NCBI GenBank assembly: GCA_963666365.2
Contig: CAXXNF010000002.1
Span: 1,440,001 to 1,504,000 of the forward strand
Origin: Syntrophales bacterium
Lineage (GTDB): Bacteria > Desulfobacterota > Syntrophia > Syntrophales > UBA2210
Direction of reading: 5' to 3'
Length of the DNA: 64,000 bases
The stretch's first letter is position 1, and each line of letters starts with the position of its first letter. The notes beneath the pieces are model-generated. The model was not told where the DNA came from and searched no databases. It saw only the letters and a list, made by a program, of their open reading frames with translations. Shown piece by piece: positions 45,480 to 62,106 of the stretch. The position numbers were made by a program, and so were the translations under genes.

Positions 45480-45596
45480 TAAACAGGGAATACAGAGCCC
45501 TTATTGTATGAACAACTGCGTACCGACTGACCATTCGATCGCGTTTTTTTCTTACAGGATAGAGCAATGTGCATACCTGTATGGAGGGGGGCCCAC

Positions 45597-48500: not shown

Positions 48501-48701
48501 GGAACCCTCAAACGAGGTACGGCCAATTCCACCTACGGCGATCCCGCCAACCTGACCTTTACCGATGCAGTCGACGGCGACAAGGGCGAGGTGAGCGGCG
48601 CCAGCATTATTTTCAAGATCGATACCGTAGCGGCAAATGACGGCGCCGACGGCACCGGCGCCGATGAGGGAAAGGTGTATTTCGAGGTGATAATCGATTG
48701 A
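45597..48701 (+). CDS. Secreted multi-DUF11 adhesin with N-terminal DUF3344-like head (putative tip)
   Basis: Signal peptide ...LHA; YAELIWGG and GWTLAVVY head motifs; five DUF11-type repeats (GD/E.ITYT.T..N.G...D.LP); ends YFEVIID. Confidence 0.8.
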   Translation: MNRRPFGAARASVVKTDRTLSILCGGVDAGDDAPPRRTLKPGILFSLLLALSLLLAPATLHAAYVKRYTTIANGAMTFTGNALGLSKASNSDRPGTNGSIGTFSTTDTSLRDNSYWPYGTTDNWQDNSSSALLTMPGGSTVLYAELIWGGSYNYGGSNVSSSLNNAVSLTTPLGAFSISPSSSTATTLTGDYYYVRSADVTSYVKGAGAGLYTVGGVPGTQERNENNANAAGWTLAVVYKNTALPARNMTIFVGGELTSSSQTTTSSVSGFCTPQSGTINARMMVSAIEGDSNLTGDQMRFGPSTGTLSAVSGPNNPINNFFSSQINSDDGTLDTSGTFGTLNHTPGSNSSGRRQGWDITNVDVSSRMQNSQSTAFARGTTSGDRYVITTIGLQIDVGQPVFPTAVMTVDKPVTFVGDTVTYTTTLDNSAGSADALNVVFTDSPPPGMSFVTGSVTVNGVPQPGANPALGIPLGAIAAGSVVTISYQKQVDAVPLPPAPAEYANNATWTYQYESCPSFPLNNGTLSTAPNVISVVPRLEPTKSADPPGAVLPGGAVTYTITIPNTGTAPTAGTTLADPIPTGTAYVPGSTTMNGTPVADTAGQMPFAAARLVNSPGEPAGQVNIGEAAVISFQVTINPDPPLIITNIATIDPDGAGPSPAIEVPLTNPPVQADLAVAITDNQTEAVAGAPIAYEVTVTNNGPDRVISCNLSVPLPDAIINAAYSANAGAYNSQTGAWTGLSLNAGQSAVLTVSGNVAPSALSPLTVTATVSPSPGVQDAASGNNSASDTDTILYRADLAVTKTDGKESVIPGETITYTITVTNNGPSHVEAVTLVDTLPALFQSPLFNPSEGVYNEETGLWSGISLEPGSSVTLSLTGMVDESLTGDLVNTVTVTPPEDVVDPENGNNTAVDTNTSSPLMSLHKYVDRTNAAPGESLLYTVHYRNIGGSLAQNVIIIDTIPPYTRYKAGTLKRGTANSTYGDPANLTFTDAVDGDKGEVSGASIIFKIDTVAANDGADGTGADEGKVYFEVIID

Positions 48702-48717
48702 GCAAGGGGTGTAATGC

Positions 48718-49236
48718 ATGAATACCACAAATTTATTTCCAAGAGCGGCGCTCCTCTGCGCGTCTTTTCTCCTGTGCTTCCTTTCGGGAAGTCCTGCCTG
48801 GTCACAGGACGAAGCCAGGCTCGTTCTGAAGACGGAAGCAGCCAAGGAGATCAGGGTGAAAGAAGGAGCTGTCTGGGTCGTAAAGTACGAGCCGGTAACC
48901 GTGACAAAGCCGGGGGACATCCTGCGGTATACGGTTGCCTATCACAACGAGGGAAACGCTCCGGCAGTGGGCGCCCGTATCGTGGATCCGGTCCCGAAAG
49001 GAACCGTCTATATCATGGGAAGCGCCGCCGGCGCCGGGACGGCGATCCGATTCAGCATCGACGGCGGGGCGACCTGGCAGGCGCCCCCGGTGATGCATGT
49101 GGTGCGGAAACCCGACGGAAGCGAGAAAAAAGAGCCGGCCCCGCCGGAACTCTTCACCCATATCAGGTGGTCCCTGACGGGAGAGGTGCCCGCCGGCGGT
49201 TCCGGCAGTGTGCATTTCAAGGTCACCGTGCAGTAA
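48718..49236 (+). CDS. Small secreted single DUF11-like domain protein
   Basis: Signal peptide ...AWS; PGDILRYTVAYHNEG, DPVPKGTVY, FSIDGG, ends FKVTVQ. Confidence 0.8.
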   Translation: MNTTNLFPRAALLCASFLLCFLSGSPAWSQDEARLVLKTEAAKEIRVKEGAVWVVKYEPVTVTKPGDILRYTVAYHNEGNAPAVGARIVDPVPKGTVYIMGSAAGAGTAIRFSIDGGATWQAPPVMHVVRKPDGSEKKEPAPPELFTHIRWSLTGEVPAGGSGSVHFKVTVQ

Positions 49237-49308
49237 AAGGTGGAAATCGTATGAGATTTCCATTGGATATACATTAGTTAACATTACATGAAGGGGAGGT
49301 AACAAGTC

Positions 49309-51057
49309 ATGCGTAGAATTCTCTTAACCATGGTTGTTGTTGCAGCGGCCCTCACACTGTGCTGGTCACAGGCGGAGGCCGCGGGAACTCCGGTCAACAC
49401 ATCCATCACCAACCAGGCCTATGCCGATTACAAGGACGCCAACGGCAACGACCGGCCGCGGGTCACCTCGAACACGGTCACCACCGTGGTCAGCCAGGTG
49501 GCCTCCGTCTCGAGTACTCCGGCGACGGCCTCACACAACGGCATCGCAGGCACCGATGTGGAATATCCGGCGGAGATCTGCAATAAGGGGAACGGGTCAG
49601 ACACGATCACCCTGGCAGCGGTAAACGACCAGGGATGGACTGTCACGATCTATCCCGATCTCAACGGAAACGGCGTGTGGGATTCGGGCACCGAAGGCAC
49701 GCCTGTGGCAAATACGGGATCGCTGGCCGCCGATCAGTGCTATAAAGTGATCGTAATGGTGTCCGTACCGGCAGGGACGGCAAACGGGACCATCGGCACG
49801 ACCACGCTCACCGCCACATCCACCTATAACGGTACCGTATCCGACACGTCCGTCTTTACGACTAACGCCCAGTCGGCGGTGCTCACACTTATAAAATCGG
49901 GCACGCCGGCCAATCCGAAACCGGGCGATACCATTACCTACGCGATCACCGGCAGCAACAGCGGCGGCACCGCTTACAGCGTCCGCGTCATCGACGCCAT
50001 TCCCGCCAACACCACCTACGTGACGGGGAGTATGAAGGCCGGTCCCGTGGGGGGCGAGTACGCCACTGCCTATGCAATGACGGATGCGAACGATTCGGAA
50101 AATCTGACCTACACGGTGGGGGCCGACACGGCGATCGCCAATGCCTACTATGATTCGGGCGCAACACAGATTCAGCTCGACTGGTCCCAGTGCCCTCCGG
50201 CGGGGGTCTTCTACTTCCAGGTAAAGGTAAACAGCGACGTCGCCTCGGGGACGGGCATCACCAATACGGCCACGGCCTCTTACGGCCTGCTCGACAACGG
50301 ACTGCGCCCCTACACCGAATCGACCAACGGCGCCACAGTCACCGTGGCCACCCTGCCGGGTGTTGATCTCTATTCCGACGGAACCGGCACGGGCGATCCC
50401 GGCGACCAGATGGTCTACCCCTTTACCGTCAAAAATACAGGAAACGCCACCGACACCTTCGATTTCACCTACACCTCGTCGGCGGGGTGGACCTGGGTTA
50501 TCTGGCGGGATGTGGACGGCAACGGCATTCCCGGCACCGATGGCGATGTTGCCGTCACCGATTCGGGCGATCTGGCTGCCGGGGCAACGGGGTCGTTCCT
50601 GGCCGTCGCCACCATACCGGCCGGCCAGGCTGACGGGACCGTCGACACCGTGGTCGTTACCGGTAAATCCCGCATCGACACGGGCGTAAGCGACACGGCC
50701 ACCTTCGCCACCACCGTCACGGCGCCGGTGCTGACCATCACCAAGACCGTGTCCCCCACGGGGAATCAGCCTCCGGGGACGGTGCTCACCTACCAGGCGA
50801 CGGTCACGAATGTCGGCACGGGCGTGGCTACAAGCATCATCATTGCCGACATGGTGCCCCAGTACACCACCTATGTGGCGGGCTCCATCAAAACAGGGGG
50901 CACGGCAGGCTCGCTTGTCGCACGGACCGACGCCTCCGACGGCGACGGCGGCCGCTACGACGCGGGGACCAACGCCGTCACGGCGGGAGGAGCGGGCGTG
51001 CTGAGCCTGGGGGCCGGCGGCACCTGGGTGCTGGAGTTCAAGGTGACCATCGACTAA
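49309..51057 (+). CDS. Secreted DUF11/Ig tandem protein (putative major pilin)
   Basis: GGGGAGGT RBS; signal peptide ...AEA; AGTPVNTSITNQA start; internal duplication; ends FKVTID. Confidence 0.8.
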   Translation: MRRILLTMVVVAAALTLCWSQAEAAGTPVNTSITNQAYADYKDANGNDRPRVTSNTVTTVVSQVASVSSTPATASHNGIAGTDVEYPAEICNKGNGSDTITLAAVNDQGWTVTIYPDLNGNGVWDSGTEGTPVANTGSLAADQCYKVIVMVSVPAGTANGTIGTTTLTATSTYNGTVSDTSVFTTNAQSAVLTLIKSGTPANPKPGDTITYAITGSNSGGTAYSVRVIDAIPANTTYVTGSMKAGPVGGEYATAYAMTDANDSENLTYTVGADTAIANAYYDSGATQIQLDWSQCPPAGVFYFQVKVNSDVASGTGITNTATASYGLLDNGLRPYTESTNGATVTVATLPGVDLYSDGTGTGDPGDQMVYPFTVKNTGNATDTFDFTYTSSAGWTWVIWRDVDGNGIPGTDGDVAVTDSGDLAAGATGSFLAVATIPAGQADGTVDTVVVTGKSRIDTGVSDTATFATTVTAPVLTITKTVSPTGNQPPGTVLTYQATVTNVGTGVATSIIIADMVPQYTTYVAGSIKTGGTAGSLVARTDASDGDGGRYDAGTNAVTAGGAGVLSLGAGGTWVLEFKVTID

Positions 51058-51090
51058 GGGGCCGACAAGGCCGGTGAGAGAGAAGACGCT

Positions 51091-54000
51091 GTGACGAAGA
51101 AGATGCGGCGGAATACTACGCATTTTGTCCTTTACTGGTGCATACTGATGGTGTGCCTGTGGCACGCCTGCACCGGAGGGACACCTGCGTACGCCGCATC
51201 GCCTCCCGTCGGCACCGCCATCACGAACCGCGCCACCGTCGCGTACCACGACGCCAACGGGAACCTGCTGCCCGAGGCAAGCGCCACCGTGTCCACCATC
51301 GTTTCCGGCGCACCGGTGCTTGCCGTCACGAAAACTGCAAGCGCCGATATCGTCAGCGCCGGCGATTTACTGACCTACACCATCACCTGTGAAAACAGGG
51401 GGAATGCCGACGCCCTTTCGACGGTCGTCGTCGATCATCTGCCCGCGGAAGTGATTTTCCTCAGCGCATCGACCGGCGGCGCCTACAGCTCAGGACCGCC
51501 GGCAGGCGGCAGCGTCGCATGGAATCCGGGAACCCTCGCGGCCGGTGAACGCATTTCCCTCTGGGTCGAGGTACGGGTAAAGGCGGGTCTCGCCGTCGGT
51601 ACGATGATAGACAATACCGCCGACATCACCTCGGCCGAGGGCGCATCGGCGGCGGCGGCACAGTCCGCACGCGTGGGGTTCGCACCGAATCTTTCCATCA
51701 CAAAATCCGCTGTACAGGGCACGGTCACACCGGGAGGGACAATCACCTATACCATCGACTACAAAAACAGCGGGAATCAGACCGCATCCTTCGTTTCCAT
51801 CGGCGACACGCTTCCCGCCGGTACCACCTATGTTGACGGTTCTTCCACGGCAGACGTCACGGTCAAGGGCGGTCTGCTCTCATGGTCCATCGGATCGATA
51901 CCGGCCGGTGTGCAGGGGTCGGTCACTTTTCAGGTAACGATATCACCGGCGGCCTCTGAAGGCGACATGGTGCGGAACACGGCCGCGCTGACCAGCAAGG
52001 AAGGGGGCACCATTTCGTCAAATACGGTCGCCACCGCCGTGGTCGCATCTCCTCCGCTGATTGTGGCTAAAACGGGAGTCCCCGATCCGGTGCGGGCAGG
52101 AGATACCATTACCTATACCATCGTGGTGACAAACGGCGCGTCGACTCCCGTGACGGGACTTCTCATCACCGATCCACTGCCGGCACATACCGCCTTCGTC
52201 AGCGCCGACGCGGGAGGCGTCCTCAGCGGCGACAGCGTCGTCTGGTCCGCGGGAACACTCGCGGGAGGGGCGTCAACGACGGTCAGACTGGTGGTGCAGG
52301 CGCTGCCGTTCAGCGATCCCAATCCCGTCATTGCCAACAGGGTCTCGGCAGCGGCCAACGAGGCGCTTCTGCAGACGGCCTCGACCACGACCTCCGTCAT
52401 CTGCCGCACTCCGGCGGCGATACGCTTTCTTGATGCAGCATCGACGCCCACGAACCGGTATTCCGTGGGTGACATGATCTGCATGGAAGTGTCCGATCCC
52501 GATCAGAACCGCGATCCCCTCACGGCGGAGACGGTCACGGTCCGCATCACGACATCCGGCACCGGCGACGCGGAAACGATCATCCTCACGGAAACAGACA
52601 TCAATACGGGCGTATTCCACTCATGTCTGCCTTCCGATACCGGACCCACCGTTCAGCAGAACGGCATCCTCACCGTAGCTTCCGACATCACCGTCACGGT
52701 AGCCTACGAAGATCCGCTGGATGCCCTCTGCGGATACCAGGCGGAATCGACGGCCGATGTCCTGATCGACCCCTTCGGCGTCGTCTTCAATTCCATCACC
52801 GGGCTTCCCGTGGCCGACGCCACGGTCACCCTGATTGACGATGCCACGGGACTGGCGGCGGCGCTTCCGCTCAACCCGAAAACCGGCGCAGTTCAGCCCA
52901 ACCCGGTGGTCACAAAGGCGGACGGCGCCTTCCAGTTTGAATACGTCAGCCCGGGAACCTATCATTTTACCGTCGGCACGCCTGCAGGCTACCTGTGGCC
53001 CTCGGCCGTGCCCAATACGGAGCTGCGCCTGTCCTGGCCCGCTTTCGTCATCGACGACAACGGCTCCAAGGGTGAATCCTTCACCCTGACCGCCGCCTCT
53101 CCGCCGCTCAACATCGATCTGCCCCTGGATCCTCCCGGCGGATCCTTCGTGGTTGAAAAAACGGCGGACAAGAGCGCTGCATCCGTAGGCGATCTGGTAC
53201 AGTACACGGTGACGGTCTCGAACAACGGCGCCTCTCCTATCGGATCGATTGCCGTCCATGATGCCATGCCGCACGGCGTTCGGTATCTGAACGGCTCATC
53301 GCGCCTCGGCGGGGTGAAGATCGCCGACCCGGTTCCCACCGCCGGAAGAACGGTCATATGGAACATTCCCGCACTTGCACCGGGGGATGCGGCGGCGATT
53401 ACCTTCAGGGCCCTTGTCGGTCCCGACAGTCATCGGGGCACGGGACGAAATACGGCATGGGCCTCGGGAACGACCGTGGGCGCCGCGGTGTCTTCCAGCA
53501 TTGCCACCCACGACCTGAAAATCACCGAGGGGGTATTCACCTCCAGGGCGATCATCATCGGCAAGGTCTTTATCGACAGCGACGGAAACGGCCTTCAGAC
53601 AAACGACGCGGTCAGCGCCGAAACGACATCCGGCGGCGGCGCCACAGAACAATGCCATAACGAACCGGGCATTCCCGGCGTGGTCCTCTACCTGGAAGAC
53701 GGCACCCGGGTGATCACGGATCAGCACGGCAAATTCTCCATCCCGGGCGTTGCGCCGGGCACGCACGTTCTGCGGGTCGATACATCGTCACTGCCGGAAG
53801 GGGTCGAGCTTACGGCCTCATCGGGAAGATCCATGGGAGACGGCACGTCGCAGTTTATCTCTATAGGCTACGGCAGTCTCTTTAAAGCGAATTTCACGGC
53901 CCGCATGCGGGAGGGAACAGATTTCACCGCACTGCGGATTCAAAAACAGACGATCCTGAAGCCGGACCGCCCAACGGGCGCATCGGGCCGTTCCGGCGCC

Positions 54001-54294
54001 CCGGCTTCGATCACGCAGGCGCCGGAGCCCGTCGAAACAGGGACGGTTCTTACCGACACGCCGGCGGCCGCCGGCGCGAAGGCGGTGCATTCGGAAGAGA
54101 GTCCCGCTCCTCACACCACACCTCCCCTTGAGGAGCGCATTCTCACCATGTCGAAGGAACTCGCCTTCGTCAGCCCCGTCGACGGCGCTATCATCGCCGG
54201 CGATTCCACCGCCGTGGTGATCAAGGCGCCGGCAGGATCGACGCCCGCCCTTTCCGTCAACGGGCGCACCATCGGCAATGATAAAATCGGTTAA
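51091..54294 (+). CDS. N-terminal half of large DUF11/SdrD-B-like surface protein (frameshifted)
   Basis: Signal peptide ...AYA; four DUF11 repeats; DPFGVVFNS...G.PV domain; IIGKVFIDSDGNG...EPGIPGVVLYLEDGT; stops mid-domain at IGNDKIG*. Confidence 0.8.
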   Translation: MTKKMRRNTTHFVLYWCILMVCLWHACTGGTPAYAASPPVGTAITNRATVAYHDANGNLLPEASATVSTIVSGAPVLAVTKTASADIVSAGDLLTYTITCENRGNADALSTVVVDHLPAEVIFLSASTGGAYSSGPPAGGSVAWNPGTLAAGERISLWVEVRVKAGLAVGTMIDNTADITSAEGASAAAAQSARVGFAPNLSITKSAVQGTVTPGGTITYTIDYKNSGNQTASFVSIGDTLPAGTTYVDGSSTADVTVKGGLLSWSIGSIPAGVQGSVTFQVTISPAASEGDMVRNTAALTSKEGGTISSNTVATAVVASPPLIVAKTGVPDPVRAGDTITYTIVVTNGASTPVTGLLITDPLPAHTAFVSADAGGVLSGDSVVWSAGTLAGGASTTVRLVVQALPFSDPNPVIANRVSAAANEALLQTASTTTSVICRTPAAIRFLDAASTPTNRYSVGDMICMEVSDPDQNRDPLTAETVTVRITTSGTGDAETIILTETDINTGVFHSCLPSDTGPTVQQNGILTVASDITVTVAYEDPLDALCGYQAESTADVLIDPFGVVFNSITGLPVADATVTLIDDATGLAAALPLNPKTGAVQPNPVVTKADGAFQFEYVSPGTYHFTVGTPAGYLWPSAVPNTELRLSWPAFVIDDNGSKGESFTLTAASPPLNIDLPLDPPGGSFVVEKTADKSAASVGDLVQYTVTVSNNGASPIGSIAVHDAMPHGVRYLNGSSRLGGVKIADPVPTAGRTVIWNIPALAPGDAAAITFRALVGPDSHRGTGRNTAWASGTTVGAAVSSSIATHDLKITEGVFTSRAIIIGKVFIDSDGNGLQTNDAVSAETTSGGGATEQCHNEPGIPGVVLYLEDGTRVITDQHGKFSIPGVAPGTHVLRVDTSSLPEGVELTASSGRSMGDGTSQFISIGYGSLFKANFTARMREGTDFTALRIQKQTILKPDRPTGASGRSGAPASITQAPEPVETGTVLTDTPAAAGAKAVHSEESPAPHTTPPLEERILTMSKELAFVSPVDGAIIAGDSTAVVIKAPAGSTPALSVNGRTIGNDKIG

Positions 54295-57220
54295 AACGGT
54301 GACCCATAGTAAAGGAAAGGTTGCCCTCTTCGAATACATAGGGGTGCCTCTCGATCCCGGCGCTCCCAATGTGCTGACCGTCTCCGTGACGGATCCCTTC
54401 GGGAACAGGCGAGGCAGCGCGTCCGTCACCGTCGAGACCGTCGGCGAGGCGGATCGCATTCTTCTGTCGGCGGATCGCGAAGAGGCGCCCGCCGACGGTA
54501 ATGCGACGATTGAGGTCACCGTCTCAATCGTCGACCGGAAAGGGCATCCCGTCCCCTACGCGGCGCCGGTCACGGTAATCGTCACCCCGGGAGAAATCAT
54601 TACCGAAGACGCCGATCCTTCGACAGAGGAAGTGCAGATTGCCTGCACAAAAGGAACCGCCCGATTTAGCGTTCGGGCACCCCGCACCTCCGGCGAAGGG
54701 AACATCAATGTCTACGCCGATGCGCTGGAAGGAAGAATGAATGTCTTCTTCTTCCCCTACCTGCGCGACCTCTTTGCCGTCGGTATCGGAGAAATCACCA
54801 TCGGCCACGGCTCGACACGAGGCGATTTCGGCTACCTCAAAGACGGCAAGTGGTTCGATGATGATCTCTACGGCGGCGCCCGGGGCGCCTTCTTCCTGAA
54901 GGGAAACATTTATAAGGACTATCTGCTCACCGCCTCCTTCGATTCAGAAAAGGAAGAGGAGGACGAACTCTTCCGCCAGTCCGACACCGACATTGAGTCT
55001 GAGGACAAGTATCCTATTTACGGGGACGAGAGCACCCTGGGCTATGAAGCTATGTCGAAGGACAAGCTCTACGTCAAGGTGGAAAAAGGTCGGTCGTCGC
55101 TGCTCTACGGCGATTATCAGACGAATCTCAACGACACGGCGCTCGCCTCATACCAGCGATCGTTCAATGGACTGAAGCTCGACCTCAACACGGATCGCTT
55201 CAAACTGCGCGCCTTCGGCAGCGAAACCGATCAGACCCAGGTCGTGGACGCCCTGCCGGGACGCGGCATTTCGGGATATTATTATCTAACCCACCGGCCG
55301 GTCATCTCCGGGTCGGAACGGGTCGTCATCGAGGTGCGGGACCGGCTGCGCCCCGACCGCGTCCTCTCCCGCGAAACCCGTGCACGCGGCAGCGACTACG
55401 ACATCGATTACGATGCAGGAACCATTCTGTTCAAGGAACCGATCCCCATACGGGACAGCGACTACAACCCCGTCTATGTCACAATCAGCTATGAAGCGGA
55501 AACGGGGGGAGAAGACTATTACATTTACGGCGGGCGAGGCGCCTTCAAGGTTCTGCCCTGGCTCGAAGTGGGCGCCACAGGCATCGTGGAAGAGCAGGCC
55601 GCCGGCGATTATACGCTTTTCGGCGGAGACGTCACGTTGACGCTTCCGGGCAATACGACGGTAAAGGCCGAATACGCCGAAACGCGGGCACTGTTCGACA
55701 TATCGAATGCCATGGTAAGGAAATCCGGCGGCGGCTGGTCCTTTGAGCTCGAATCATCGCCGATAGACCGGCTTGTCCTGTCCGGCTACTATAAGAATCT
55801 GGACGACTATTTCCAGAACATCTCCGCCACCGATGCACCGCGGGGCGTCGAAAAATACGGATTCGACGGCCGCTTTGCACTGACCGACCGCATCGAATTG
55901 AAGGGAACCTTCTTTGATGAAAAGGACAAACTGAATCATTCAAGCCACAGTTATGCCTCACTGGGAGCCCAGGCCCGGCTGGGGAAAACAAAAATCACCG
56001 CGGAACTTTCAAGGGAAACCTCCGACGATCAGTACATACCGGCCACGAGCGATTCGACGAGAAGCCCCTTCGACATGAGCGAGGAATCGCCGCGTGAACT
56101 CACGGCCGCCGGCGTCGCCCTTGAAACGGAGCTTCGCCCGAACCTGTCCCTTACCGTGGGGCACAAGCGCAACATAAAGGACGAAAACCTCCACACCTCC
56201 CAGGTAGGGCTCAACTATCAGATCAGCGAGCTCAATCGCCTCTATGTGAGGGAGGAGTACCAGAAGTACAGTGAACGGACCGAGCTGAGAACCCTCTTCG
56301 GCGTGGAATCGAAGGTCATCAAAAACACCGTCGCCTTCAATGAATACCGCCTGGTGGACGGATCGGACAGTTCCCGCAATCAGCAGGCCATCGGCCTTCG
56401 GAACAAATTCCTCCTGGCCGATCATCTGACGGGAAACCTTTCCGTCGAATACCTGAGCACCCTCTCGGGAGAGGCGAAGGAGAGCGAACCGGACGCCTTT
56501 GCCCTGGCCACGGGACTGGAATATCTCCCCCGGGATGATTTCAAGGTAACGGGACGTTTCGAACACAGAAACGAACTCTCCGGCGACGGCATCGACAGCT
56601 ATCTGGGCGAATTAGGGCTTCTGCTGAAAATCACGCCCAGCTACTCGCTGCTGGCCAAGGAACGGTTTTTTTATGAAACAAGCGGCATAACGGGCGCCCA
56701 CACCAGCTCACGCACCATGGTGGGACTTGCCTGGCGGCCCCTCTGCGACGACCGGTTCAACGGCCTTGCGAAAGCGGAATACAAGGTCGACGACAACGGC
56801 ACGATTGATCCGGATTATAAAACCACGGCCTTCATTCTATCTACAGAAGGTGTCTACCAGGTAAACAGCCGGCTCCAGCTTTCGGCCAAATACGCGGGGA
56901 AACTGTCGCGCGACAGCGAGTATTCCTCCTACACGGACCTCCTTTCGGCACGGATCATCTACGACGTGACGGACCGCATCGACCTCGGGGCCGAGTACAG
57001 AGTGCTGACAAGCCATAAAATCGGAAGCACCCTTCAGGGAGGAAATCTGGAAGTCGGCTATCGGGTGGTCAAGAACCTCTGGGTCTCCCTGGGCTATTCC
57101 TTCGACGACTTCGATGCCGATCTCATCGGCGACGACTACCAGGGAAGAGGGCCCTATGTAAAACTCCGCTTCAAGTTCAGCGAAGACTCCATAAAAAACC
57201 TCTTCAAAAAGAAAAAATGA
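54278..57220 (+). CDS. C-terminal half: Ig domains + large outer-membrane beta-barrel
   Basis: No signal peptide or RBS; PADG invasin-like Ig; GAFFLKG, YPIYGDES; long run of amphipathic strands ending YVKLRFKF + tail; joins the upstream ORF if one T is removed. Confidence 0.8.
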   Translation: MIKSVKTVTHSKGKVALFEYIGVPLDPGAPNVLTVSVTDPFGNRRGSASVTVETVGEADRILLSADREEAPADGNATIEVTVSIVDRKGHPVPYAAPVTVIVTPGEIITEDADPSTEEVQIACTKGTARFSVRAPRTSGEGNINVYADALEGRMNVFFFPYLRDLFAVGIGEITIGHGSTRGDFGYLKDGKWFDDDLYGGARGAFFLKGNIYKDYLLTASFDSEKEEEDELFRQSDTDIESEDKYPIYGDESTLGYEAMSKDKLYVKVEKGRSSLLYGDYQTNLNDTALASYQRSFNGLKLDLNTDRFKLRAFGSETDQTQVVDALPGRGISGYYYLTHRPVISGSERVVIEVRDRLRPDRVLSRETRARGSDYDIDYDAGTILFKEPIPIRDSDYNPVYVTISYEAETGGEDYYIYGGRGAFKVLPWLEVGATGIVEEQAAGDYTLFGGDVTLTLPGNTTVKAEYAETRALFDISNAMVRKSGGGWSFELESSPIDRLVLSGYYKNLDDYFQNISATDAPRGVEKYGFDGRFALTDRIELKGTFFDEKDKLNHSSHSYASLGAQARLGKTKITAELSRETSDDQYIPATSDSTRSPFDMSEESPRELTAAGVALETELRPNLSLTVGHKRNIKDENLHTSQVGLNYQISELNRLYVREEYQKYSERTELRTLFGVESKVIKNTVAFNEYRLVDGSDSSRNQQAIGLRNKFLLADHLTGNLSVEYLSTLSGEAKESEPDAFALATGLEYLPRDDFKVTGRFEHRNELSGDGIDSYLGELGLLLKITPSYSLLAKERFFYETSGITGAHTSSRTMVGLAWRPLCDDRFNGLAKAEYKVDDNGTIDPDYKTTAFILSTEGVYQVNSRLQLSAKYAGKLSRDSEYSSYTDLLSARIIYDVTDRIDLGAEYRVLTSHKIGSTLQGGNLEVGYRVVKNLWVSLGYSFDDFDADLIGDDYQGRGPYVKLRFKFSEDSIKNLFKKKK

Positions 57221-57298
57221 CGCCTGGAGACCTGACATAATTCCCTCAATCCTGACGTCACGACGCATGCAAAGAGACCTTTTGTGGCCAAAATCTTC

Positions 57299-57327
57299 TT
57301 GACACACAAGAGACGGCTTAATAAACT
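57299..57327 (+). promoter_or_regulatory. Sigma70-type promoter for the saposin-like gene
   Basis: TTGACA-N17-TAAACT. Confidence 0.7.
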
Positions 57328-57377
57328 TCGGCTCACAAAAAGGAAGTTCTTATCAATTCAATTTAAAAGGAGATCCC

Positions 57378-57710
57378 ATGCGAAAACGGTTGTTCCTTCT
57401 CTTTGCGGTGATCGCTCTGTTGCCGGCCGGTCTCTCCCAGGGGCGGCTCGCCTTGGAACCCTGCAGCGCTTACGCGGACCTGAACTGCGCGGTCTGTGAG
57501 TGGGTGATGGCCGAGGTGGACAAGTGCCCAGGGGCGACCAGGGAACAGATCGCGCAGTGCCTCGACCGCTCCTGCGCCTTCCTCCCGTACAGCGTCAGGA
57601 CCCTCTGCGATTCCTTCGTGAAGACCAAGGGCCCGCAGTGCGTGGACCTCCTGGTCGCGAAGGTCCCACCGGAACAGATCTGCACCTCGGTGGGCTCCTG
57701 CACCAAATAG
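57378..57710 (+). CDS. Secreted saposin-like (SapB-type) protein
   Basis: AAAAGGAGA RBS; signal peptide; C37-x2-C40...C66-x2-LP...C77-x2-FV...GP...P-x2-IC102-x5-C108 saposin spacing. Confidence 0.8.
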   Translation: MRKRLFLLFAVIALLPAGLSQGRLALEPCSAYADLNCAVCEWVMAEVDKCPGATREQIAQCLDRSCAFLPYSVRTLCDSFVKTKGPQCVDLLVAKVPPEQICTSVGSCTK

Positions 57711-57777
57711 GGCCCATCTCCTCTTTACCGGCCCTCCGGATGAAGGCAAGAGGGAAAAGCCAAATTACAGTTTATTT

Positions 57778-57814
57778 TCTCCGAAAAGTACAATATATCG
57801 ATACTTACTGGAGA
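57778..57814. promoter_or_regulatory. Imperfect inverted repeat, candidate AbiEi operator
   Basis: TCTCCGAAAAGTA-N11-TACTTACTGGAGA (10/13 pairing) directly before the antitoxin. Confidence 0.5.
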
Positions 57815-57818
57815 CACT

Positions 57819-58418
57819 ATGCCGAAGGATCATGCCACCCTGATGCACGAAATGCGGGATTACGCCTCGCCGAAGGCGCGTCTGACGCGGATGATCAAGT
57901 CGGGCGAGCTAATCCAGGTGCGCAGGGGGATATTTCTGGAGAAAAAAGAAACAGGATATTCCCTCAAAAGTCTCGCGTCAATCATCTACGGCCCCTCCTA
58001 TATCTCCTTTGAATACGCCCTGGGCCATTACAGGCTGATCCCGGAACGGGTTCAGGCCGTCACCTCGGCGGTGTACAACAAAAACAAGAATCGCCGCTTC
58101 CATACTCCCCTGGGCGATTTTTACTACTATTATCTTCCGGCTAAGGTCTTCCCCTATGGTGTCGTCCTGGGAGAGGAAAACGGCCAGCGCTATCTGATGG
58201 CCACGCCGGAAAAGGCGCTTTGCGACAGTCTCTACAAAACGCGGGGCATCGGCAGCGTGAAGGCCCTCAAGGCTCTGTTCTTTGAGGACTGGCGAATGGA
58301 ACGAGAGGCTGTCCTTTCCCTGGACCGGGAGAGCATTCTTTTTTTGGCCCCCCTGTACAGAAAGCAGATTTTCCCGCTGCTTCTGAATTGGTTGGAGGAC
58401 GAGGCGAATGATGCATAG
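57819..58418 (+). CDS. AbiEi-family type IV antitoxin
   Basis: wHTH LIQVRRGIF, PSYISFEYAL..Y.LIPE, ATPEKALCD. Confidence 0.88.
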   Translation: MPKDHATLMHEMRDYASPKARLTRMIKSGELIQVRRGIFLEKKETGYSLKSLASIIYGPSYISFEYALGHYRLIPERVQAVTSAVYNKNKNRRFHTPLGDFYYYYLPAKVFPYGVVLGEENGQRYLMATPEKALCDSLYKTRGIGSVKALKALFFEDWRMEREAVLSLDRESILFLAPLYRKQIFPLLLNWLEDEANDA

Positions 58419-59298
58419 CGCACTGCAGGACATGCTCAAGGCCTACGATTGCCGCACGGCGGATGACTACCGCCACGCGCTCAATGAAACCGTCCAGGAA
58501 ATCGCTCTATTAGGGCTTTATCGCGGAGGTTTTTTCACCAAAGCGGCCTTCTACGGTGAAACGGCCCTCCGCATTTTCTACGGCCTCGATCGTTTTTCAG
58601 AAGACCTGGATTTTTCGTTGCTGAAAAGCGACCCGTCCTTTGATCTGTCCTCCTTTACACAGGTGTTGCAGGATGAACTGGGCGCTTACGGTCTGGAGAT
58701 GACGGTTCAGAAAAAGATCAAACGCAACGATTCTCCCGTTCAATCGGCCTTCATCAAAGGAGGCACGCAAATGCATCTGCTGACGATCGCATCGGTTCAA
58801 CCGCCCGTGTCCGGCATCAACCCCAAGGAACAACTCCGGATCAAGTGTGAAGTGGATACCGAACCACCAGGCGGCGCAACCTTCGAAATGAAATATCAAC
58901 TGCGCCCGGTGCCTTATTCTGTGCGCCTTTACTCGCCCTCATCGCTTTTCGCCGGGAAAGTCCACGCACTGCTCTGCCGGTCGTGGAAAAGGAGGGTCAA
59001 GGGACGCGACTTTTACGATTATGTCTGGTTTTTGTCCCGATCGATTCCGGTGAGCCTCGCTCATCTGGCGGAGCGGATGAGGCAGACGGGACACCTTTCA
59101 GCCAATGCGGTCCTCAGTGAAGAGGCCCTCAGGGATTGTTTGAGAAAACGCTTTGCAGTCGTTGATTTCGATCAGGTGCGAAAAGACGTGCTGCCCTTCA
59201 TCAAAAATGCCGAGGCCGTCCATCTCTGGTCGGCAGATTTTTTCTCTCGGATTACGGATGAACACCTTCACACCGAAGGGGCCAAAGCCGATGTCTGA
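58408..59298 (+). CDS. AbiEii-family nucleotidyltransferase toxin
   Basis: AFYGETALRIFYGLDRFSEDLDF, LFAGKVHA, RVKGRDFYD; overlaps the antitoxin stop. Confidence 0.9.
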   Translation: MMHSALQDMLKAYDCRTADDYRHALNETVQEIALLGLYRGGFFTKAAFYGETALRIFYGLDRFSEDLDFSLLKSDPSFDLSSFTQVLQDELGAYGLEMTVQKKIKRNDSPVQSAFIKGGTQMHLLTIASVQPPVSGINPKEQLRIKCEVDTEPPGGATFEMKYQLRPVPYSVRLYSPSSLFAGKVHALLCRSWKRRVKGRDFYDYVWFLSRSIPVSLAHLAERMRQTGHLSANAVLSEEALRDCLRKRFAVVDFDQVRKDVLPFIKNAEAVHLWSADFFSRITDEHLHTEGAKADV

Positions 59299-59391: not shown

Positions 59392-61914
59392 TCACTCCGG
59401 TCTCATTCCCACCAGCTGCTGCAGGATGTAAATCGCCTCTCCCAATCCCTGTGGGCCGCTGCCGCCGTTGCCGCATGGACCGGCGACCGCGAGCAGGGCG
59501 GTGGCCGTGCCTGTCTGGGACGCCCCGTCGGTGACGGTGAGCGTCACATCATAGAATCCCGGCTGCAGATCCGTCAGATCCGGTGTTGCCCCCGTTGCCG
59601 TCCTGTTGTAAGCGGCATTTGTGCGGTGGGTCAGTGTCCACTGATAGGATATGATGTTCCCCTGTGAGGCGCTGCCATCCAGGTGCGCACTGTCGAACAC
59701 CACGAGATCCGGACCCGCATTGGCCGCCGTCTGCAGATGAAAGGCGGCGGTAACCGTCGTGGCCGCATTCAGCGTGACCGTGCACGTTCCCGTCCCTCCA
59801 CAGCCCCCGCCGCTCCAGCCGGAAAAGACGGCGCCGGGGGCGGCAGCCGCCGTGAGGGTTACCGTCGTTCCCGCATCGAAGGAGGCCGTGCAGATGTCAC
59901 CGCAGGCGATCCCTGCCGGCACGCTGGTGACCGTGCCGGCGCCGTCGCCGGATTTGACGATGGTCAGGGTCACCTTTGCGGGAGGGGCCGCCGCCGTCGA
60001 ATAGAGTTCAGCTGTTCCGCCCGGATCTCCTCCCACGATAAGGATGTCATATTCCGGGGAAAGACCGGGCAGGTAGGTGGCGGTATGAAAGAGCCGGGGG
60101 GTGGTCATCTGCGCCGTGGTCACGGTGAAATCGTCCGTCGATAAATCGAGTATCTCCATTGTCGCATTCAACGGGCAGCCTCCGCTGACAAGGAGCCGTC
60201 CGTCCGTGAGCTGCGTCACCTCAGCGCCGAACCGCCCGTGATTGAGGGTCCCGTAGGCCGAGAAGGTTCCCGTCAGGGGGTTGTAAATTTCCGTTGACGT
60301 CAGAACAGTTCCCGGGTTGTTCATTTCCGTAAGGCCGCCGCCGAAGACGATCTGAAAATTGCCGGCCATTGTTCTGGCCGCCGCCATCGATCCCGTGGCG
60401 GAGAATGTGCCCGTCGCGGCATCGTAGATTTCGGCGCCGGCAAGTGCACCGGCGCCATTGCTTCCTCCGGCAAGGAGGACCTTCGTTTCACTCAACGGCG
60501 TCGCCCGGTGGTAGACCCGCCCGGTGACCATGGTCCCTGTGGGGGTGAACACTCCCGATGCCGCGTCATAGAGATCGGCCGTGTTGGTGACACTCACTGT
60601 CGTTTCCGTCATTGCGCTGGCGCCGCCGGCAAAAAGGATCTTCATTCCTTTGGAGATCGGATCCATAATGGCCGTTGCCGTGTACAGCTGCCGGGGCGTG
60701 CTCATCTTTGAGGCCAGCAGCGTAAAGACGCCCGTGGCCGGGTCGTAGAGCTCGGCGCTGTCGATGTTGGTGGAAATGCCGTCCAGGGCATGAAATCCGC
60801 CGGCGACGAGTACCCTTCCGTCGAGCAGCAGAGTCGCCGTATGTCCCATGCGGGGAACATGCATGGATCCCGTCAGTGTAAAGGTCCGTGTCGCCGGATC
60901 GTACAGTTCCGCCGTGGCCGTAGCACCTGCCGGACCTGTCCCGTTGTGGCCGCCTGCAATAAGCACCTTGCCGTTCAGCAATCGTAGGGCCGTGTGGTAC
61001 CCGCCCCGCGGGGTCTGGGTAGCGCCCAGCGGAATGACGGATCGGGGAAGGGGGGGCGCAAGCTGATGAACGGCAAATCCGTTCTTTCCCGATCCGAGAC
61101 TGACGAATGCCATGCGGGGCACGCCCGCTGTGGCATTTGCGGCAGCATTGATAGAGATCTCGCCGCTTCCCGTACCGGCGGCAATGCCGTTGATGGAAAG
61201 CCATTCCACTCCCGGTTGAACCGCGGCGCTCCAGGCGCAGTCTTCAGAAGAGGCTGTAATGTGCAGGGTCGCGTCACCCCCTTCGGGACCGAGATAGACG
61301 CTTATGGGGTTTGCGCTGCCCGCCCTGGCCACCACAAAGGTGCAGTCTTCCGATGCGGCCGCCGGTGCAAATACGATGTCATCTATCGTAAAGTCGCCGA
61401 AATTCTCCTTTGCGATCTCGATTTTGGTAATTGCCGTCGCCGTGGAAGGAAGGGTGATAGAGGCGGCAACGGTACCGCTGAAAGTGGGAAGGGGCCCGAG
61501 CGATACCGGTGTTGAAATCTCGCCGTTCATGGGGTTGGCCAGCGTGGTGCGCACCGGCGTCCCGCTGTCAAGATAGGTAAGGTACACGGCAACCGTGCGC
61601 CATCCATCGTCGGGGGTTCCCGATTTCACCAGCTTCATGGAAAAGGTGTAGGATTTCCCCCCCACGCCGGTGATGCTCAGATTCTGGTAGATGATCGTTC
61701 CCGTGTACCCGCCGGAGGGTGGGTGAAGATTCACCGCGCCGTCCACGAGCGGCCAGGGGGGCGGCTCCGTGGGCACGACCACCCAGCCCAGGATACCCGC
61801 CGAAAAATCCCCGTTGGCAATCAGGTTTTGCGCCCGGAGCTCACGCGATGTCACAGACAACAAAAAACACACGCACACCAGCACCCAAACCGCCTTGGTC
61901 GCATTGCGCACCAT
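59392..61914 (-). CDS. Secreted multidomain surface protein: CBM-like, BACON, Kelch propeller, InlB-B-repeat-like, PKD, dockerin-like tail
   Basis: Signal peptide; NLIANGDF; R..HTAT.L.DG.VL.AGG / AELYDPATG Kelch repeats; GTVTSVPAGIACG...FSGWSGG.C; ANAGPD...YQW; ends EAIYILQQLVGMRPE. Confidence 0.85.
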   Translation of the reverse strand: MVRNATKAVWVLVCVCFLLSVTSRELRAQNLIANGDFSAGILGWVVVPTEPPPWPLVDGAVNLHPPSGGYTGTIIYQNLSITGVGGKSYTFSMKLVKSGTPDDGWRTVAVYLTYLDSGTPVRTTLANPMNGEISTPVSLGPLPTFSGTVAASITLPSTATAITKIEIAKENFGDFTIDDIVFAPAAASEDCTFVVARAGSANPISVYLGPEGGDATLHITASSEDCAWSAAVQPGVEWLSINGIAAGTGSGEISINAAANATAGVPRMAFVSLGSGKNGFAVHQLAPPLPRSVIPLGATQTPRGGYHTALRLLNGKVLIAGGHNGTGPAGATATAELYDPATRTFTLTGSMHVPRMGHTATLLLDGRVLVAGGFHALDGISTNIDSAELYDPATGVFTLLASKMSTPRQLYTATAIMDPISKGMKILFAGGASAMTETTVSVTNTADLYDAASGVFTPTGTMVTGRVYHRATPLSETKVLLAGGSNGAGALAGAEIYDAATGTFSATGSMAAARTMAGNFQIVFGGGLTEMNNPGTVLTSTEIYNPLTGTFSAYGTLNHGRFGAEVTQLTDGRLLVSGGCPLNATMEILDLSTDDFTVTTAQMTTPRLFHTATYLPGLSPEYDILIVGGDPGGTAELYSTAAAPPAKVTLTIVKSGDGAGTVTSVPAGIACGDICTASFDAGTTVTLTAAAAPGAVFSGWSGGGCGGTGTCTVTLNAATTVTAAFHLQTAANAGPDLVVFDSAHLDGSASQGNIISYQWTLTHRTNAAYNRTATGATPDLTDLQPGFYDVTLTVTDGASQTGTATALLAVAGPCGNGGSGPQGLGEAIYILQQLVGMRPE

Positions 61915-62106
61915 AGAGTCCTCCTTGATTCTCACTTCACAAAAAAAAACATCTACCTATATTGACATGGAAAAACGCCGGTTCGGAAGAACCGGCAACA
62001 GATACGGAATGACAATGGCTGAAATTATCTTCGAGACCTTTCCCAAAGTCAAATGCTTTTTATACGAGGCTTTTTTTGGTACTGTGAAATGCATCACATG
62101 CTAATA

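What the first reader, a model, noticed from the sequence alone, without database searches (positions are those of the whole stretch)
57299..57710. Bacterial secreted protein with the eukaryotic saposin six-cysteine signature
Seen: CAVCEWVMAEVDK...TREQIAQCLDRSCAFLPYSVRTLCDSFVKTKGPQCVDLLVAKVPPEQICTSVGSC matches the saposin-B pattern C-x2-C...T..EI...L...C..LP......C..FV...GP.....L.....P..IC...G.C. It has a signal peptide, a strong RBS, its own TTGACA-17-TAAACT promoter, no intron and G/C-ending codons like its neighbours. Extra Cys at 50, 61, 88 (and 29) could add a disulfide. Known: disulfide-bonded saposin-like proteins (saposins, NK-lysin, granulysin, amoebapores) are lipid-binding or membrane-lytic and regarded as essentially eukaryotic; bacterial look-alikes such as AS-48 share only the fold. 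Inference: a eukaryote-to-bacterium transfer or an unrecognised bacterial family, acting as antimicrobial, lipid carrier or lipase cofactor. It sits in an accessory position beside an AbiE module.
Basis: partly seen in the sequence, partly recalled or inferred. Interest (0 to 1): 0.85.

Follow-up and report, generated by a model that had tools for sequence, protein, structure and literature searches.

The report
Eukaryote-type saposin gene in a bacterium
An anaerobic sediment-type bacterium carries one small, export-tagged gene for a true saposin, a lipid-binding protein otherwise found in eukaryotes, on a roughly 500-base insert that a near-identical environmental strain lacks; whether it works in this host is untested.

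Summary
Window 57378-57710 (+) encodes a 110-aa protein: a Sec-type signal peptide followed by one canonical saposin B-type domain. Evidence for the domain: Pfam SapB_2 above its cutoff, human saposins D and C at E about 1e-9, and an AF2 model (pLDDT 89.8) that superposes on them at 1.5-1.8 A.

The domain is 36-46% identical to prosaposin domains of marine invertebrates and protists. No supported sister lineage was found.

It was not found in:
- 330 other genomes of the host's order;
- 400 other genomes of its phylum;
- about 800 genomes of two other phyla;
- 72,556 plasmids and 50,697 phage records.

The locus is not an assembly artefact. Independent contigs from two runs of one sample span it with no differences. 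A 95-99% identical sediment-metagenome contig joins the two flanking genes without a 508-bp segment that holds the promoter, RBS and ORF.

GC3 is 0.86 against a genome mean of 0.62.

Best reading: a horizontally acquired, ultimately eukaryotic, strain-specific saposin, probably a lipid-binding or membrane-active exported protein.

Open puzzle: the protein has 10 cysteines, and four of them sit where none of 1418 eukaryotic domains has one, yet the host shows no DsbA, DsbB or VKOR.

Function and expression are untested.

The parts
57227..57734 (.). Strain-specific 508-bp segment holding promoter, RBS, the whole ORF and 24 nt after the stop. A 95-99% identical metagenome contig lacks it.
   Evidence: X3 record 4 (387 nt, depth 5) matches 57038-57226 and 57770-57927 and skips 57227-57769, with 40 letters between. 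By eye, letters 7-40 of that stretch align with window 57735-57769 (about 27 of 35 identical), so the true gap is 57227-57734. DNA homology with same-genus genome G001 stops at 57217.
57299..57327 (+). Sigma-70-like promoter TTGACA-17-TAAACT
   Evidence: 10 of 12 matches. Its -35 hexamer plus spacer shares 16 of 16 nt with a second site in the genome, upstream of a lipoprotein-like ORF.
57367..57372 (+). Shine-Dalgarno AAGGAG, 5 nt before the ATG
   Evidence: Read
57378..57710 (+). ORF of 110 aa (stop included): signal peptide plus a single saposin domain
   Evidence: Single copy in the genome.
57378..57443 (+). Predicted Sec signal peptide (residues 1-22). N-region MRKR, hydrophobic core LFLLFAVIALLPA, then GLSQG. 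No lipobox.
   Evidence: Reading of the translation. No signal-peptide predictor was available, so this is inference.
57483..57704 (+). Saposin B-type domain (residues 36-109). Canonical Cys at 37, 40, 66, 77, 102, 108. Extra Cys at 50, 61, 88, plus C29 upstream of the domain.
   Evidence: (E=4.3e-28 to the domain model)
54278..57220 (+). Left flank: a 980-aa surface protein (Big_1/invasin-like N-terminus; the rest is guessed to be an outer-membrane barrel). It is the last gene of a DUF11 surface-protein operon and is conserved in relatives.
   Evidence: (75% aa identity in G001, 55% in G014)
57819..59298 (+). Right flank: AbiEi (57819-58418) and AbiEii (58408-59298), a toxin-antitoxin / abortive-infection pair

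Best explanation
This is a genuine single-domain saposin (SAPLIP) gene of ultimately eukaryotic origin. It has been fitted with bacterial expression and export signals and lies on a 508-bp strain-specific insert, between a conserved surface-protein operon and an AbiE module, in a Syntrophaceae-like deltaproteobacterium.

Shown:
- the domain identity;
- the predicted saposin fold;
- the chromosomal location;
- the accessory status;
- the atypical codon composition.

Inferred mechanism:
- The precursor is exported by Sec and cleaved near residue 22.
- The roughly 88-aa mature protein folds into the closed four-helix saposin bundle, held by C37-C108, C40-C102 and C66-C77. The four extra cysteines may add up to two further bonds.
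- Like saposins C and D, it opens to bind or extract lipids.
- Because it is slightly acidic rather than cationic, I favour a lipid-binding or lipid-solubilising role over a lytic one. It would act in the envelope or outside the cell, for instance on hydrophobic substrates or foreign membranes.
For: Domain and fold:
- SapB_2 scores above its cutoff.
- Human saposins D and C score E=1.5e-9 to 4e-9 over the whole domain.
- The domain is 36-44% identical to 15 eukaryotic domains, with all six Cys columns invariant.
- The AF2 model built on that alignment has pLDDT 89.8. Foldseek gives saposin D 3bqq TMq 0.85 at rmsd 1.8 A, and saposin C 2gtg TMq 0.85 at rmsd 1.5 A. The single-sequence model gave the same top hits.

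Eukaryotic kinship:
- 1056 representative proteins match at E<=1e-3. The 149 non-self proteins listed all have 3-29 saposin repeats.
- Every named hit is a eukaryote: molluscs, echinoderms, cnidarians, hemichordates, tunicates, insects, sharks, Paratrimastix and two unnamed protists.

Rarity in prokaryotes:
- 0 of 40 relatives.
- 0 of 330 other genomes of the order.
- 0 of 400 other genomes of the phylum with PF03489.
- 0 of 401 and 0 of 401 genomes in two other phyla, with a positive control on the own genome at E=4.3e-28.
- No tblastn hit in plasmids or phages.

Real locus:
- It lies inside a 2.47-Mb contig.
- Logan contigs of 7933 nt and 3304 nt, from two runs of one sample, cover it with 0 differences.
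- The segment occurs only once in the genome.

Accessory and foreign:
- An empty-site contig exists in an independent sediment metagenome.
- Synteny with G001 breaks exactly at the stop codon of the left-flank gene.
- GC3 of 0.864 lies in the top 0.8% of windows.

Bacterial adaptation:
- It has a promoter, an RBS and a signal peptide.
- It lacks the N-x-S/T sequon that 806 of 1418 eukaryotic domains carry in the helix 1-2 loop.

Charge: mature pI 5.25, charge -1.3.
Against: - No expression data: no RNA run is listed for this organism.
- Only one sequence exists, so selection cannot be measured.
- The host genome (94% complete) gives no hit to DSBA, DsbB, VKOR or Thioredoxin_4, while the control genomes do.
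- In a crude census, exported-like proteins hold less Cys than cytoplasmic-like ones (0.96% vs 1.53%) and show no even-number bias (144 even, 168 odd). The disulfide-locked fold may therefore not form in this host.
- The donor is unresolved. In both trees the query sits in a polytomy with no supported clade, and the Paratrimastix domains are nearest only by path length.
- The whole-collection scans of genome, viral and metagenome contigs used two narrow peptide patterns, so they exclude only close relatives.
- The roughly 900 weaker hits could not be inspected and could include single-domain bacterial proteins.
- SapB_1 and PF20825 are below their cutoffs.
- The direction of the indel (gain here or loss in the metagenome strain) is inferred, not shown.
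Confidence: 0.6

Rival explanations
1. Neutral passenger. The gene was picked up recently (for example by transformation and recombination through the flanks) and is not functional in this host, because an anaerobe without a Dsb system cannot oxidise its ten cysteines.
For: - No DsbA, DsbB, VKOR or Thioredoxin_4 was found.
- Exported-like proteins are Cys-poor and show no even-number bias (crude).
- Passages of PMC12453122 state that obligate anaerobes tend to exclude cysteines from exported proteins.
- The gene is a singleton, missing from a 95-99% identical strain.
- GC3 has not drifted toward the host's value.
Against: - The frame is intact and carries a near-consensus promoter, a strong RBS and a well-formed signal peptide.
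- All six canonical cysteines are kept.
- CAI is at the 79th percentile of host long ORFs.
- Four added cysteines look more like adaptation than decay.
Confidence: 0.2
2. Membrane-permeabilising weapon. It would act as an amoebapore- or NK-lysin-like pore former, secreted against competing bacteria or grazing protists.
For: - The fold also matches NK-lysin (TMq 0.80) and granulysin (TMq 0.81).
- It has an export signal.
- It lies in an accessory position next to a defence module.
Against: - Sequence similarity is to lysosomal saposins D and C at 1e-9. NK-lysin, granulysin and amoebapore do not appear among the 26 sequence hits at E<=10.
- The mature charge is -1.3. Cationic lysins are strongly positive; that figure is recalled, not tested here.
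- No immunity gene or dedicated exporter lies beside it.
- There is no PADLOC hit.
Confidence: 0.15
3. Member of an unrecognised native bacterial saposin family, old in bacteria and merely undersampled, rather than a transfer from eukaryotes.
For: - It has bacterial promoter, RBS and signal peptide, so it has been in bacteria for some time.
- High GC3 suggests an earlier high-GC bacterial host.
- The roughly 900 unlisted hits were not inspected.
- The collection scans were pattern-limited.
Against: - There were 0 matches in about 1,570 other prokaryotic genomes searched with HMMs.
- There were 0 matches in plasmids and phages by tblastn.
- The word-indexed search of 5.8 billion proteins in the 41-139 aa range returned only the protein itself and 7 other proteins; the 6 read are fragments of prosaposin-type domains, 2 of them from a shark.
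- At 36-46% identity it lies inside eukaryotic domain diversity rather than outside it.
Confidence: 0.1
4. Assembly chimera or eukaryotic contamination joined to bacterial DNA.
For: The sequence looks eukaryotic, and an empty-site allele exists elsewhere.
Against: - Contigs assembled independently from two runs span both junctions with 0 differences.
- No repeat in the genome could mislead an assembler.
- The ORF lies 157 nt and 108 nt from bacterial genes inside a 2.47-Mb contig.
- It has bacterial signals and no intron.
Confidence: 0.03

Closest known systems
Human saposins D and C (prosaposin-derived sphingolipid activator proteins; PDB 2r0r, 3bqq, 2gtg, 2qyp)
   Same: - Best sequence matches among solved structures, at E=1.5e-9 to 4e-9 and 29-32% identity.
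- Same six-cysteine pattern.
- Same predicted closed four-helix bundle, TMq 0.85 at rmsd 1.5-1.8 A.
- Mildly acidic (the saposin value is recalled).
   Different: - A stand-alone gene with a bacterial signal peptide, not cut out of a four-domain precursor.
- No SapA domains.
- No N-glycosylation sequon.
- The helix 1-2 loop is 2 residues shorter.
- Four extra cysteines.
- A non-lysosomal, probably neutral-pH and anoxic setting.
Multi-domain prosaposin-like proteins of marine invertebrates and protists (e.g. Haliotis, Dendronephthya, Paramuricea, Paratrimastix pyriformis)
   Same: These hold the closest individual domains, at 42-46% identity and 66-73 bits. Paratrimastix domains share the N-terminal CAVCEWV motif and are nearest by path in both trees.
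   Different: They carry 3-29 tandem domains per protein. No clade joining the query to any of them has support. None of their domains has Cys at the query's positions 50, 61 or 88 (0 of 1418).
Saposin-fold bacteriocins (AS-48, lacticin Q and other circular or leaderless bacteriocins)
   Same: Small bacterial helical membrane-active proteins with a saposin-like topology.
   Different: - They contain no cysteines or disulfides (PMC6072434, passages read).
- They show no sequence similarity to the query.
- AS-48 appears only at rank 43, E=3.4, TMq 0.20.
- They are cationic and are not Sec-signal proteins (recalled).
Lytic SAPLIPs: NK-lysin, granulysin, amoebapore A, caenopores
   Same: Single-domain secreted SAPLIPs with three disulfides. 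The fold matches at TMq 0.71-0.81.
   Different: Only 17-23% identity in the structural alignments. NK-lysin, granulysin and amoebapore are absent from the 26 sequence hits at E<=10; only caenopore-5 (2js9) appears, at E=0.0077. The query is not cationic.
Stand-alone secreted saposin-like proteins of giant viruses
   Same: Single saposin domain behind a signal peptide, outside cellular eukaryotes.
   Different: No sequence link was found: 0 relatives among 95 pattern matches in viral contigs and no look-alike window. That scan used narrow patterns, so the link remains open.

Membership tests
Saposin B-type domain / SAPLIP (Pfam SapB_1 PF05184 + SapB_2 PF03489) | Six cysteines in the pattern C-x2-C ... 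C ... C ... C-x5-C | tested here: met
   C37, C40, C66, C77, C102 and C108 occupy the invariant columns. Those columns are Cys in 1401-1417 of 1418 eukaryotic domains.
Saposin B-type domain / SAPLIP (Pfam SapB_1 PF05184 + SapB_2 PF03489) | C-terminal half scores above Pfam's SapB_2 gathering threshold | tested here: met
   28.2 bits against 21, E=2.2e-6, residues 76-108
Saposin B-type domain / SAPLIP (Pfam SapB_1 PF05184 + SapB_2 PF03489) | N-terminal half scores above Pfam's SapB_1 gathering threshold | tested here: not met
   14.7 bits against 25.2, with only residues 36-49 aligned. Full-length alignments to saposins C and D, and to my domain model, do cover this half. The shortfall follows the 2-residue deletion and the C50 substitution in the loop.
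Saposin B-type domain / SAPLIP (Pfam SapB_1 PF05184 + SapB_2 PF03489) | Compact four/five-helix saposin fold | tested here: met
   Predicted only. pLDDT 89.8, helices at domain residues 2-14, 21-34, 37-59 and 64-70. TMq 0.85 to saposins D and C.
Saposin B-type domain / SAPLIP (Pfam SapB_1 PF05184 + SapB_2 PF03489) | Disulfide connectivity C1-C6, C2-C5, C3-C4 actually formed | not testable with these tools
   Model coordinates cannot be read here. The host lacks detectable Dsb or VKOR enzymes. Disulfide mapping by mass spectrometry is needed.
Saposin B-type domain / SAPLIP (Pfam SapB_1 PF05184 + SapB_2 PF03489) | Binds lipids or membranes | not testable with these tools
   Needs liposome or lipid-binding assays.
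Prosaposin (multi-domain precursor) | Several tandem saposin B domains flanked by SapA domains | tested here: not met
   One domain in 110 aa and no SapA hit. One copy in the genome.
Saposin-fold bacteriocins (AS-48 type, leaderless type) | Cysteine-free, with no Sec signal peptide | tested here: not met
   10 cysteines. A signal peptide is read. AS-48 is at rank 43, E=3.4. The cysteine-free property comes from passages of PMC6072434.
Cationic lytic SAPLIPs (NK-lysin / granulysin) | Strong net positive charge of the mature peptide | tested here: not met
   The mature protein has charge -1.3 and pI 5.25. The family's charge is recalled, not computed here.
AbiE toxin-antitoxin module (as a possible third component) | Travels together with AbiEi and AbiEii | tested here: not met
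   The empty-site contig joins the left-flank gene to AbiEi without the saposin gene. No PADLOC model hits it.

The most novel reading that the evidence does not exclude
This would be the first functional disulfide-type saposin of a bacterium. In this reading, a eukaryotic lysosomal or innate-immune lipid-handling module was captured and re-tooled with a Sec signal, a lost glycosylation site and four new cysteines. A strictly anaerobic syntroph then uses it as a secreted lipid-extracting factor, either to mobilise hydrophobic substrates or to attack the membranes of protist grazers or competitors. Its oxidation in a Dsb-less host would point to an unknown route of disulfide formation, or to a new use of the extra cysteines such as metal binding.
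Probability: 0.3. Interest if true: 0.8.

Novelty: new member of a known kind. Interest (0 to 1): 0.6.

Why it matters
Saposin-like proteins with the three-disulfide signature are treated as a eukaryotic invention. The known bacterial look-alikes share only the fold and carry no cysteines (PMC6072434, passages).

A clear-cut, sequence-level saposin inside a bacterial chromosome, with a filled and an empty allele found in nature, is a clean and rare example of eukaryote-to-bacterium gene flow for a membrane-active module.

It offers a small, easily expressed test protein. It also poses a sharp question: how does a 10-cysteine exported protein fold in an anaerobe without Dsb or VKOR?

If it proves functional, it could reveal a bacterial use of saposin chemistry in lipid scavenging or in antagonism. 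It would also be a natural saposin scaffold with extra cross-links, of interest for saposin-lipid nanoparticle work.

Tried and rejected
Searches that found nothing or could not run:
- NCBIfam gave no family. PADLOC gave none. PHROGs gave only a 0.035 hit to the signal peptide.
- The protein atlas could not be reached, then did not hold the sequence.
- The 16-sequence alignment A1 was too variable for the search for related loci. A 3-sequence alignment, A2, was used instead.
- With A2's two narrow peptide patterns, genome contigs gave 54 pattern matches and 0 relatives, and viral contigs gave 95 matches and 0 relatives.
- Metagenome contigs gave 120 pattern matches and 1 relative. That is L015, an intronless 607-aa prosaposin-type ORF with SapA-like ends, which is eukaryotic and not bacterial.
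- No look-alike was found in other windows of this scan, and there are no notes on this genome.

Expression: no RNA holder is listed for this stretch.

Metagenome runs:
- X4 (landfill) gave only a 165-nt contig with 21-27-nt sides. That is too short to interpret.
- The small shares of the stretch held by runs X3-X9 are not used as habitat evidence, apart from the one laid X3 contig.

Origin of the insert:
- Flanking direct or inverted repeats: only short matches consistent with chance, none bracketing 57227/57734.
- Integron cassette idea: by eye there is no attC-like site after the stop and no integrase nearby. The upstream genes are a surface-protein operon. This was not tested with a model.
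- Donor lineage: FastTree on 320 domains and IQ-TREE on 86 rows gave no supported clade containing the query. The bootstrap had not settled, at correlation 0.857.

Genome sampling: (phylum of G438) listed the same genomes. It adds nothing independent and is not counted.

Literature: searches for a prior report of a bacterial disulfide-type saposin listed none, judged from titles and the starts of abstracts only. PMC3551896 reports PCR products 91-100% identical to human surfactant protein genes in S. aureus and P. aeruginosa (passages). That is a different claim and not comparable with this diverged chromosomal gene.

Positions of the extra disulfides could not be assessed, because model coordinates are not readable.
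Full report
THE OBSERVATION

- Pfam places its C-terminal half in SapB_2 above the curated cutoff (28.2 against 21 bits, E=2.2e-6). SapB_1 (14.7 against 25.2) and the whole-domain Saposin family PF20825 (21.9 against 27) stay below their cutoffs.
- NCBIfam has nothing.
- Against all PDB sequences, the best matches are human saposin D (2r0r, E=1.5e-9) and saposin C (2z9a, 2qyp, 2gtg, about 2e-9). They cover residues 33-109. Weaker matches are surfactant protein B, saposin A, caenopore-5, the plant-specific insert and acyloxyacyl hydrolase.
- The promoter-like TTGACA-17-TAAACT lies at 57299-57327.
- AAGGAG lies 5 nt before the ATG.
- The N-terminus reads as a Sec signal peptide: MRKR, a 13-residue hydrophobic core, then GLSQG, with no lipobox. 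This is inference from reading the sequence.

FOLD

The single-sequence AF2 model was mediocre (pLDDT 67.9). Even so, its top Foldseek hits were saposins C, D and A, with 2gtg at TMt 0.87 and rmsd 1.5 A.

With a 16-row alignment of the domain (A1) the model reached pLDDT 89.8 and pTM 0.75, with four helices. It superposes on saposin D 3bqq (E=9.3e-4, TMq 0.85, rmsd 1.8 A) and saposin C 2gtg (TMq 0.85, rmsd 1.5 A). NK-lysin and granulysin follow at TMq 0.80-0.81 but only 17-20% identity.

WHAT IT RESEMBLES

An exhaustive phmmer search over 1.84 billion representative proteins found 1056 proteins at E<=1e-3. The 150 listed are the query itself plus 149 proteins of 261-3236 aa, each with 3-29 matched stretches. 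These are multi-domain prosaposin-type proteins.

Source names were available for part of them through a word-indexed search, and all were eukaryotes:
- molluscs (Haliotis, Lymnaea, Dreissena);
- echinoderms and cnidarians (Dendronephthya, Paramuricea, Clytia, Nematostella);
- hemichordates, tunicates, insects and sharks;
- the protist Paratrimastix pyriformis and two unnamed protists.

At the level of single domains there is a plateau at 42-46% identity and 66-73 bits across these groups.

In a FastTree of 320 domains and an IQ-TREE of 86 rows, the query sits in an unresolved polytomy. No supported clade contains it. Paratrimastix domains are nearest by path. Its end branch (0.91) is longer than the median (0.37), and the bootstrap had not settled. 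The gene therefore lies inside eukaryotic saposin diversity, but the donor cannot be named.

WHAT IS PECULIAR TO IT

I compared it with 1418 unique eukaryotic domains taken from those hits.
- The six canonical columns are Cys in 1401-1417 of them.
- The query's extra Cys positions 50, 61 and 88 are Cys in 0 of 1418. Position 88 is I, L or V in 1340, and position 61 is mostly A, V, L or F.
- 1370 domains have exactly six Cys and only one has eight. The query has nine in the domain plus C29.
- Its helix 1-2 loop has 12 residues, against 14 in 1342 of 1418.
- It lacks the N-x-S/T sequon that 806 of 1418 carry there.
- The mature protein has pI 5.25 and charge -1.3.

IS IT REALLY BACTERIAL AND REALLY THERE?

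The window is positions 1,440,001-1,504,000 of a 2.47-Mb contig, in a 4.0-Mb genome of 2 contigs that is 94% complete.

The neighbours are plainly bacterial:
- upstream, a Fur-family gene, three DUF11-repeat surface proteins and a 980-aa Big_1/invasin-like protein;
- downstream, AbiEi and AbiEii (PADLOC 5.7e-59 and 3.3e-106);
- beyond those, a convergent Kelch/PKD protein.

By MutS similarity the nearest titled genomes are a 'Deltaproteobacteria bacterium' (74%), a 'Syntrophaceae bacterium' (65%) and a Desulfuromonadales MAG (59%).

Contigs assembled independently from two public runs of one sample cover 56600-58600 with no differences. One is a 7933-nt contig spanning the whole stretch. The other is a 3304-nt contig from 56666 on. 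These runs may be the source of the assembly, so they test the assembly rather than the biology. The 601-nt stretch around the gene occurs once in the genome.

ACCESSORY STATUS

A 387-nt contig (depth 5) from an independent sediment metagenome matches 57038-57226 with 9 differences and 57770-57927 with 2 differences. It skips the 543 nt between them and has 40 letters in their place. By eye, letters 7-40 of that stretch are homologous to window 57735-57769, at about 27 of 35 positions. So this close relative lacks 57227-57734. That is 508 nt holding the promoter, the RBS, the ORF and 24 nt after the stop, and it has 6 letters there instead. No repeats bracket the segment.

In the same-genus genome G001, DNA homology (73%) ends at 57217, the last sense codon of the 980-aa gene. 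That gene is followed convergently by mutS, whereas in this genome mutS lies 545 kb away. In G014 a different gene follows.

The gene's GC3 is 0.864. Long ORFs average 0.61-0.62, and the five neighbours range from 0.63 to 0.73. Only 56 of 6813 windows of 110 codons reach that value. CAI is unremarkable, at the 79th percentile.

HOW RARE IS IT IN PROKARYOTES?

HMM-level searches:
- 0 of 40 relatives with the protein.
- 0 of 400 other genomes of the phylum with PF03489, and 0 of 14 control genomes.
- 0 of 330 other genomes of the order with the A1 model, including 37 of the family.
- 0 of 401 genomes in the phylum of a 'Myxococcales'-titled genome.
- 0 of 401 genomes in the phylum of a 'Planctomycetota'-titled genome.
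- 0 of 5 named handles.
- The own genome served as positive control, at E=4.3e-28.
- re-sampled the genomes and is not counted.

tblastn found nothing in 72,556 plasmids or 50,697 phage records.

The word-indexed 5.8-billion-protein search returned only the protein itself at near length. With A1 it returned the protein itself plus seven other proteins. The six I read are fragments of prosaposin-type domains, two of them named for a shark.

The whole-collection scans of genome, viral and metagenome contigs used two narrow peptide patterns. They can exclude only close relatives. The single metagenome hit is a eukaryotic 607-aa prosaposin-type ORF.

These are samples and pattern searches. The gene was 'not found in those searched', which is not the same as absent from bacteria.

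THE REDOX PUZZLE

The genome gives no hit to DSBA, DsbB, VKOR or Thioredoxin_4, while 3-9 of the 14 control genomes ring for each family.

I ran a crude census with greedy ORF calls and a home-made signal-peptide rule. Exported-like proteins hold 0.96% Cys against 1.53% in cytoplasmic-like ones, and there is no even-number bias (144 even against 168 odd).

This is the pattern described for obligate anaerobes that avoid structural disulfides (PMC12453122, passages read; it cites Dutton et al. 2008, which I did not read).

A 10-Cys exported protein, at 11% Cys in its mature form, is therefore out of place in this host. How or whether it oxidises is open.

INTERPRETATION

Shown:
- a sequence-level saposin domain;
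- a predicted saposin fold;
- a bacterial chromosomal location;
- strain-specific presence;
- foreign composition;
- bacterial expression and export signals.

Inferred:
- The ultimate source is a eukaryote. There was probably an intermediate period in other, higher-GC bacteria, since the promoter, the RBS and the signal peptide are already bacterial and GC3 is far above the host's.
- The gene arrived here by recombination through the flanks, rather than being lost in the metagenome strain.
- The protein is Sec-exported and cleaved near residue 22.
- It has a saposin C/D-like lipid-binding or lipid-extracting activity rather than cationic pore formation.

The passenger reading (no function in this host) is the main rival on function, at about 0.2. 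The native-family reading is the main rival on origin, at about 0.1.

PRIOR KNOWLEDGE

Six full-text searches listed no report of a disulfide-type saposin domain encoded in a bacterial genome, judged from titles and the starts of abstracts. Databases such as InterPro could not be consulted and may list scattered bacterial entries.

Earlier notes of this scan describe stand-alone secreted saposin-like proteins in giant viruses and phiKZ. I found no sequence link to them.

VERDICT

This is a real and well-delimited case of a eukaryote-type saposin in a bacterium. It is a new member of a known protein kind in an unexpected host, with unusual extra cysteines and an unresolved folding problem. Function and expression are untested. 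Interest 0.6.

Noticed in passing
window 57299-57314 and G000:C2:2169673-2169732: The saposin promoter's -35 hexamer and the first part of its spacer (16 of 16 nt; 75% over 60 nt, E=0.001) recur upstream of a lipoprotein-like ORF elsewhere in the genome. This hints at a shared promoter type or regulator.
   Followed up: partly
whole genome G000: No hit to DSBA, DsbB, VKOR or Thioredoxin_4. A crude census shows Cys-poor exported proteins with no even-Cys bias. Two other small exported-like ORFs are even more Cys-dense (12 Cys in 86-91 aa, at C1:36273-36596 and C2:360254-360754). I did not examine them.
   Followed up: partly
window 45567-57220: This looks like an operon: three DUF11-repeat surface proteins (1044, 582 and 1067 aa), a 187-aa ORF with no family, and a 980-aa protein with a Big_1/invasin-like N-terminus. 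It is conserved in G001 (73% DNA identity) and G014 (55% aa identity). Function unknown.
   Followed up: no
window 57217-57221 versus G001:C20:1-1102: Synteny breaks exactly at the stop codon of the 980-aa gene. In G001, mutS converges 22 nt downstream. In this genome, mutS lies 545 kb away.
   Followed up: partly
G001:C20:1099-4023: The G001 orthologue of the 980-aa gene is reported with one in-frame TAG inside a 2055-aa open frame. It may be a frame read through from the upstream gene or a sequencing issue.
   Followed up: no
window 40565-44977 and 59392-61935: Two large predicted secreted proteins flank the region: a 1470-aa protein with a C-terminal VWA domain, and an 847-aa Kelch-propeller / PKD / InlB-B-repeat protein on the minus strand. 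The Kelch protein has only weak partial matches in relatives.
   Followed up: no
The genome search: Asking for the 'phylum of' two genomes whose record titles say Planctomycetota and Actinomycetes returned the same list of genomes. One of the titles disagrees with the taxonomy the tool uses.
   Followed up: no
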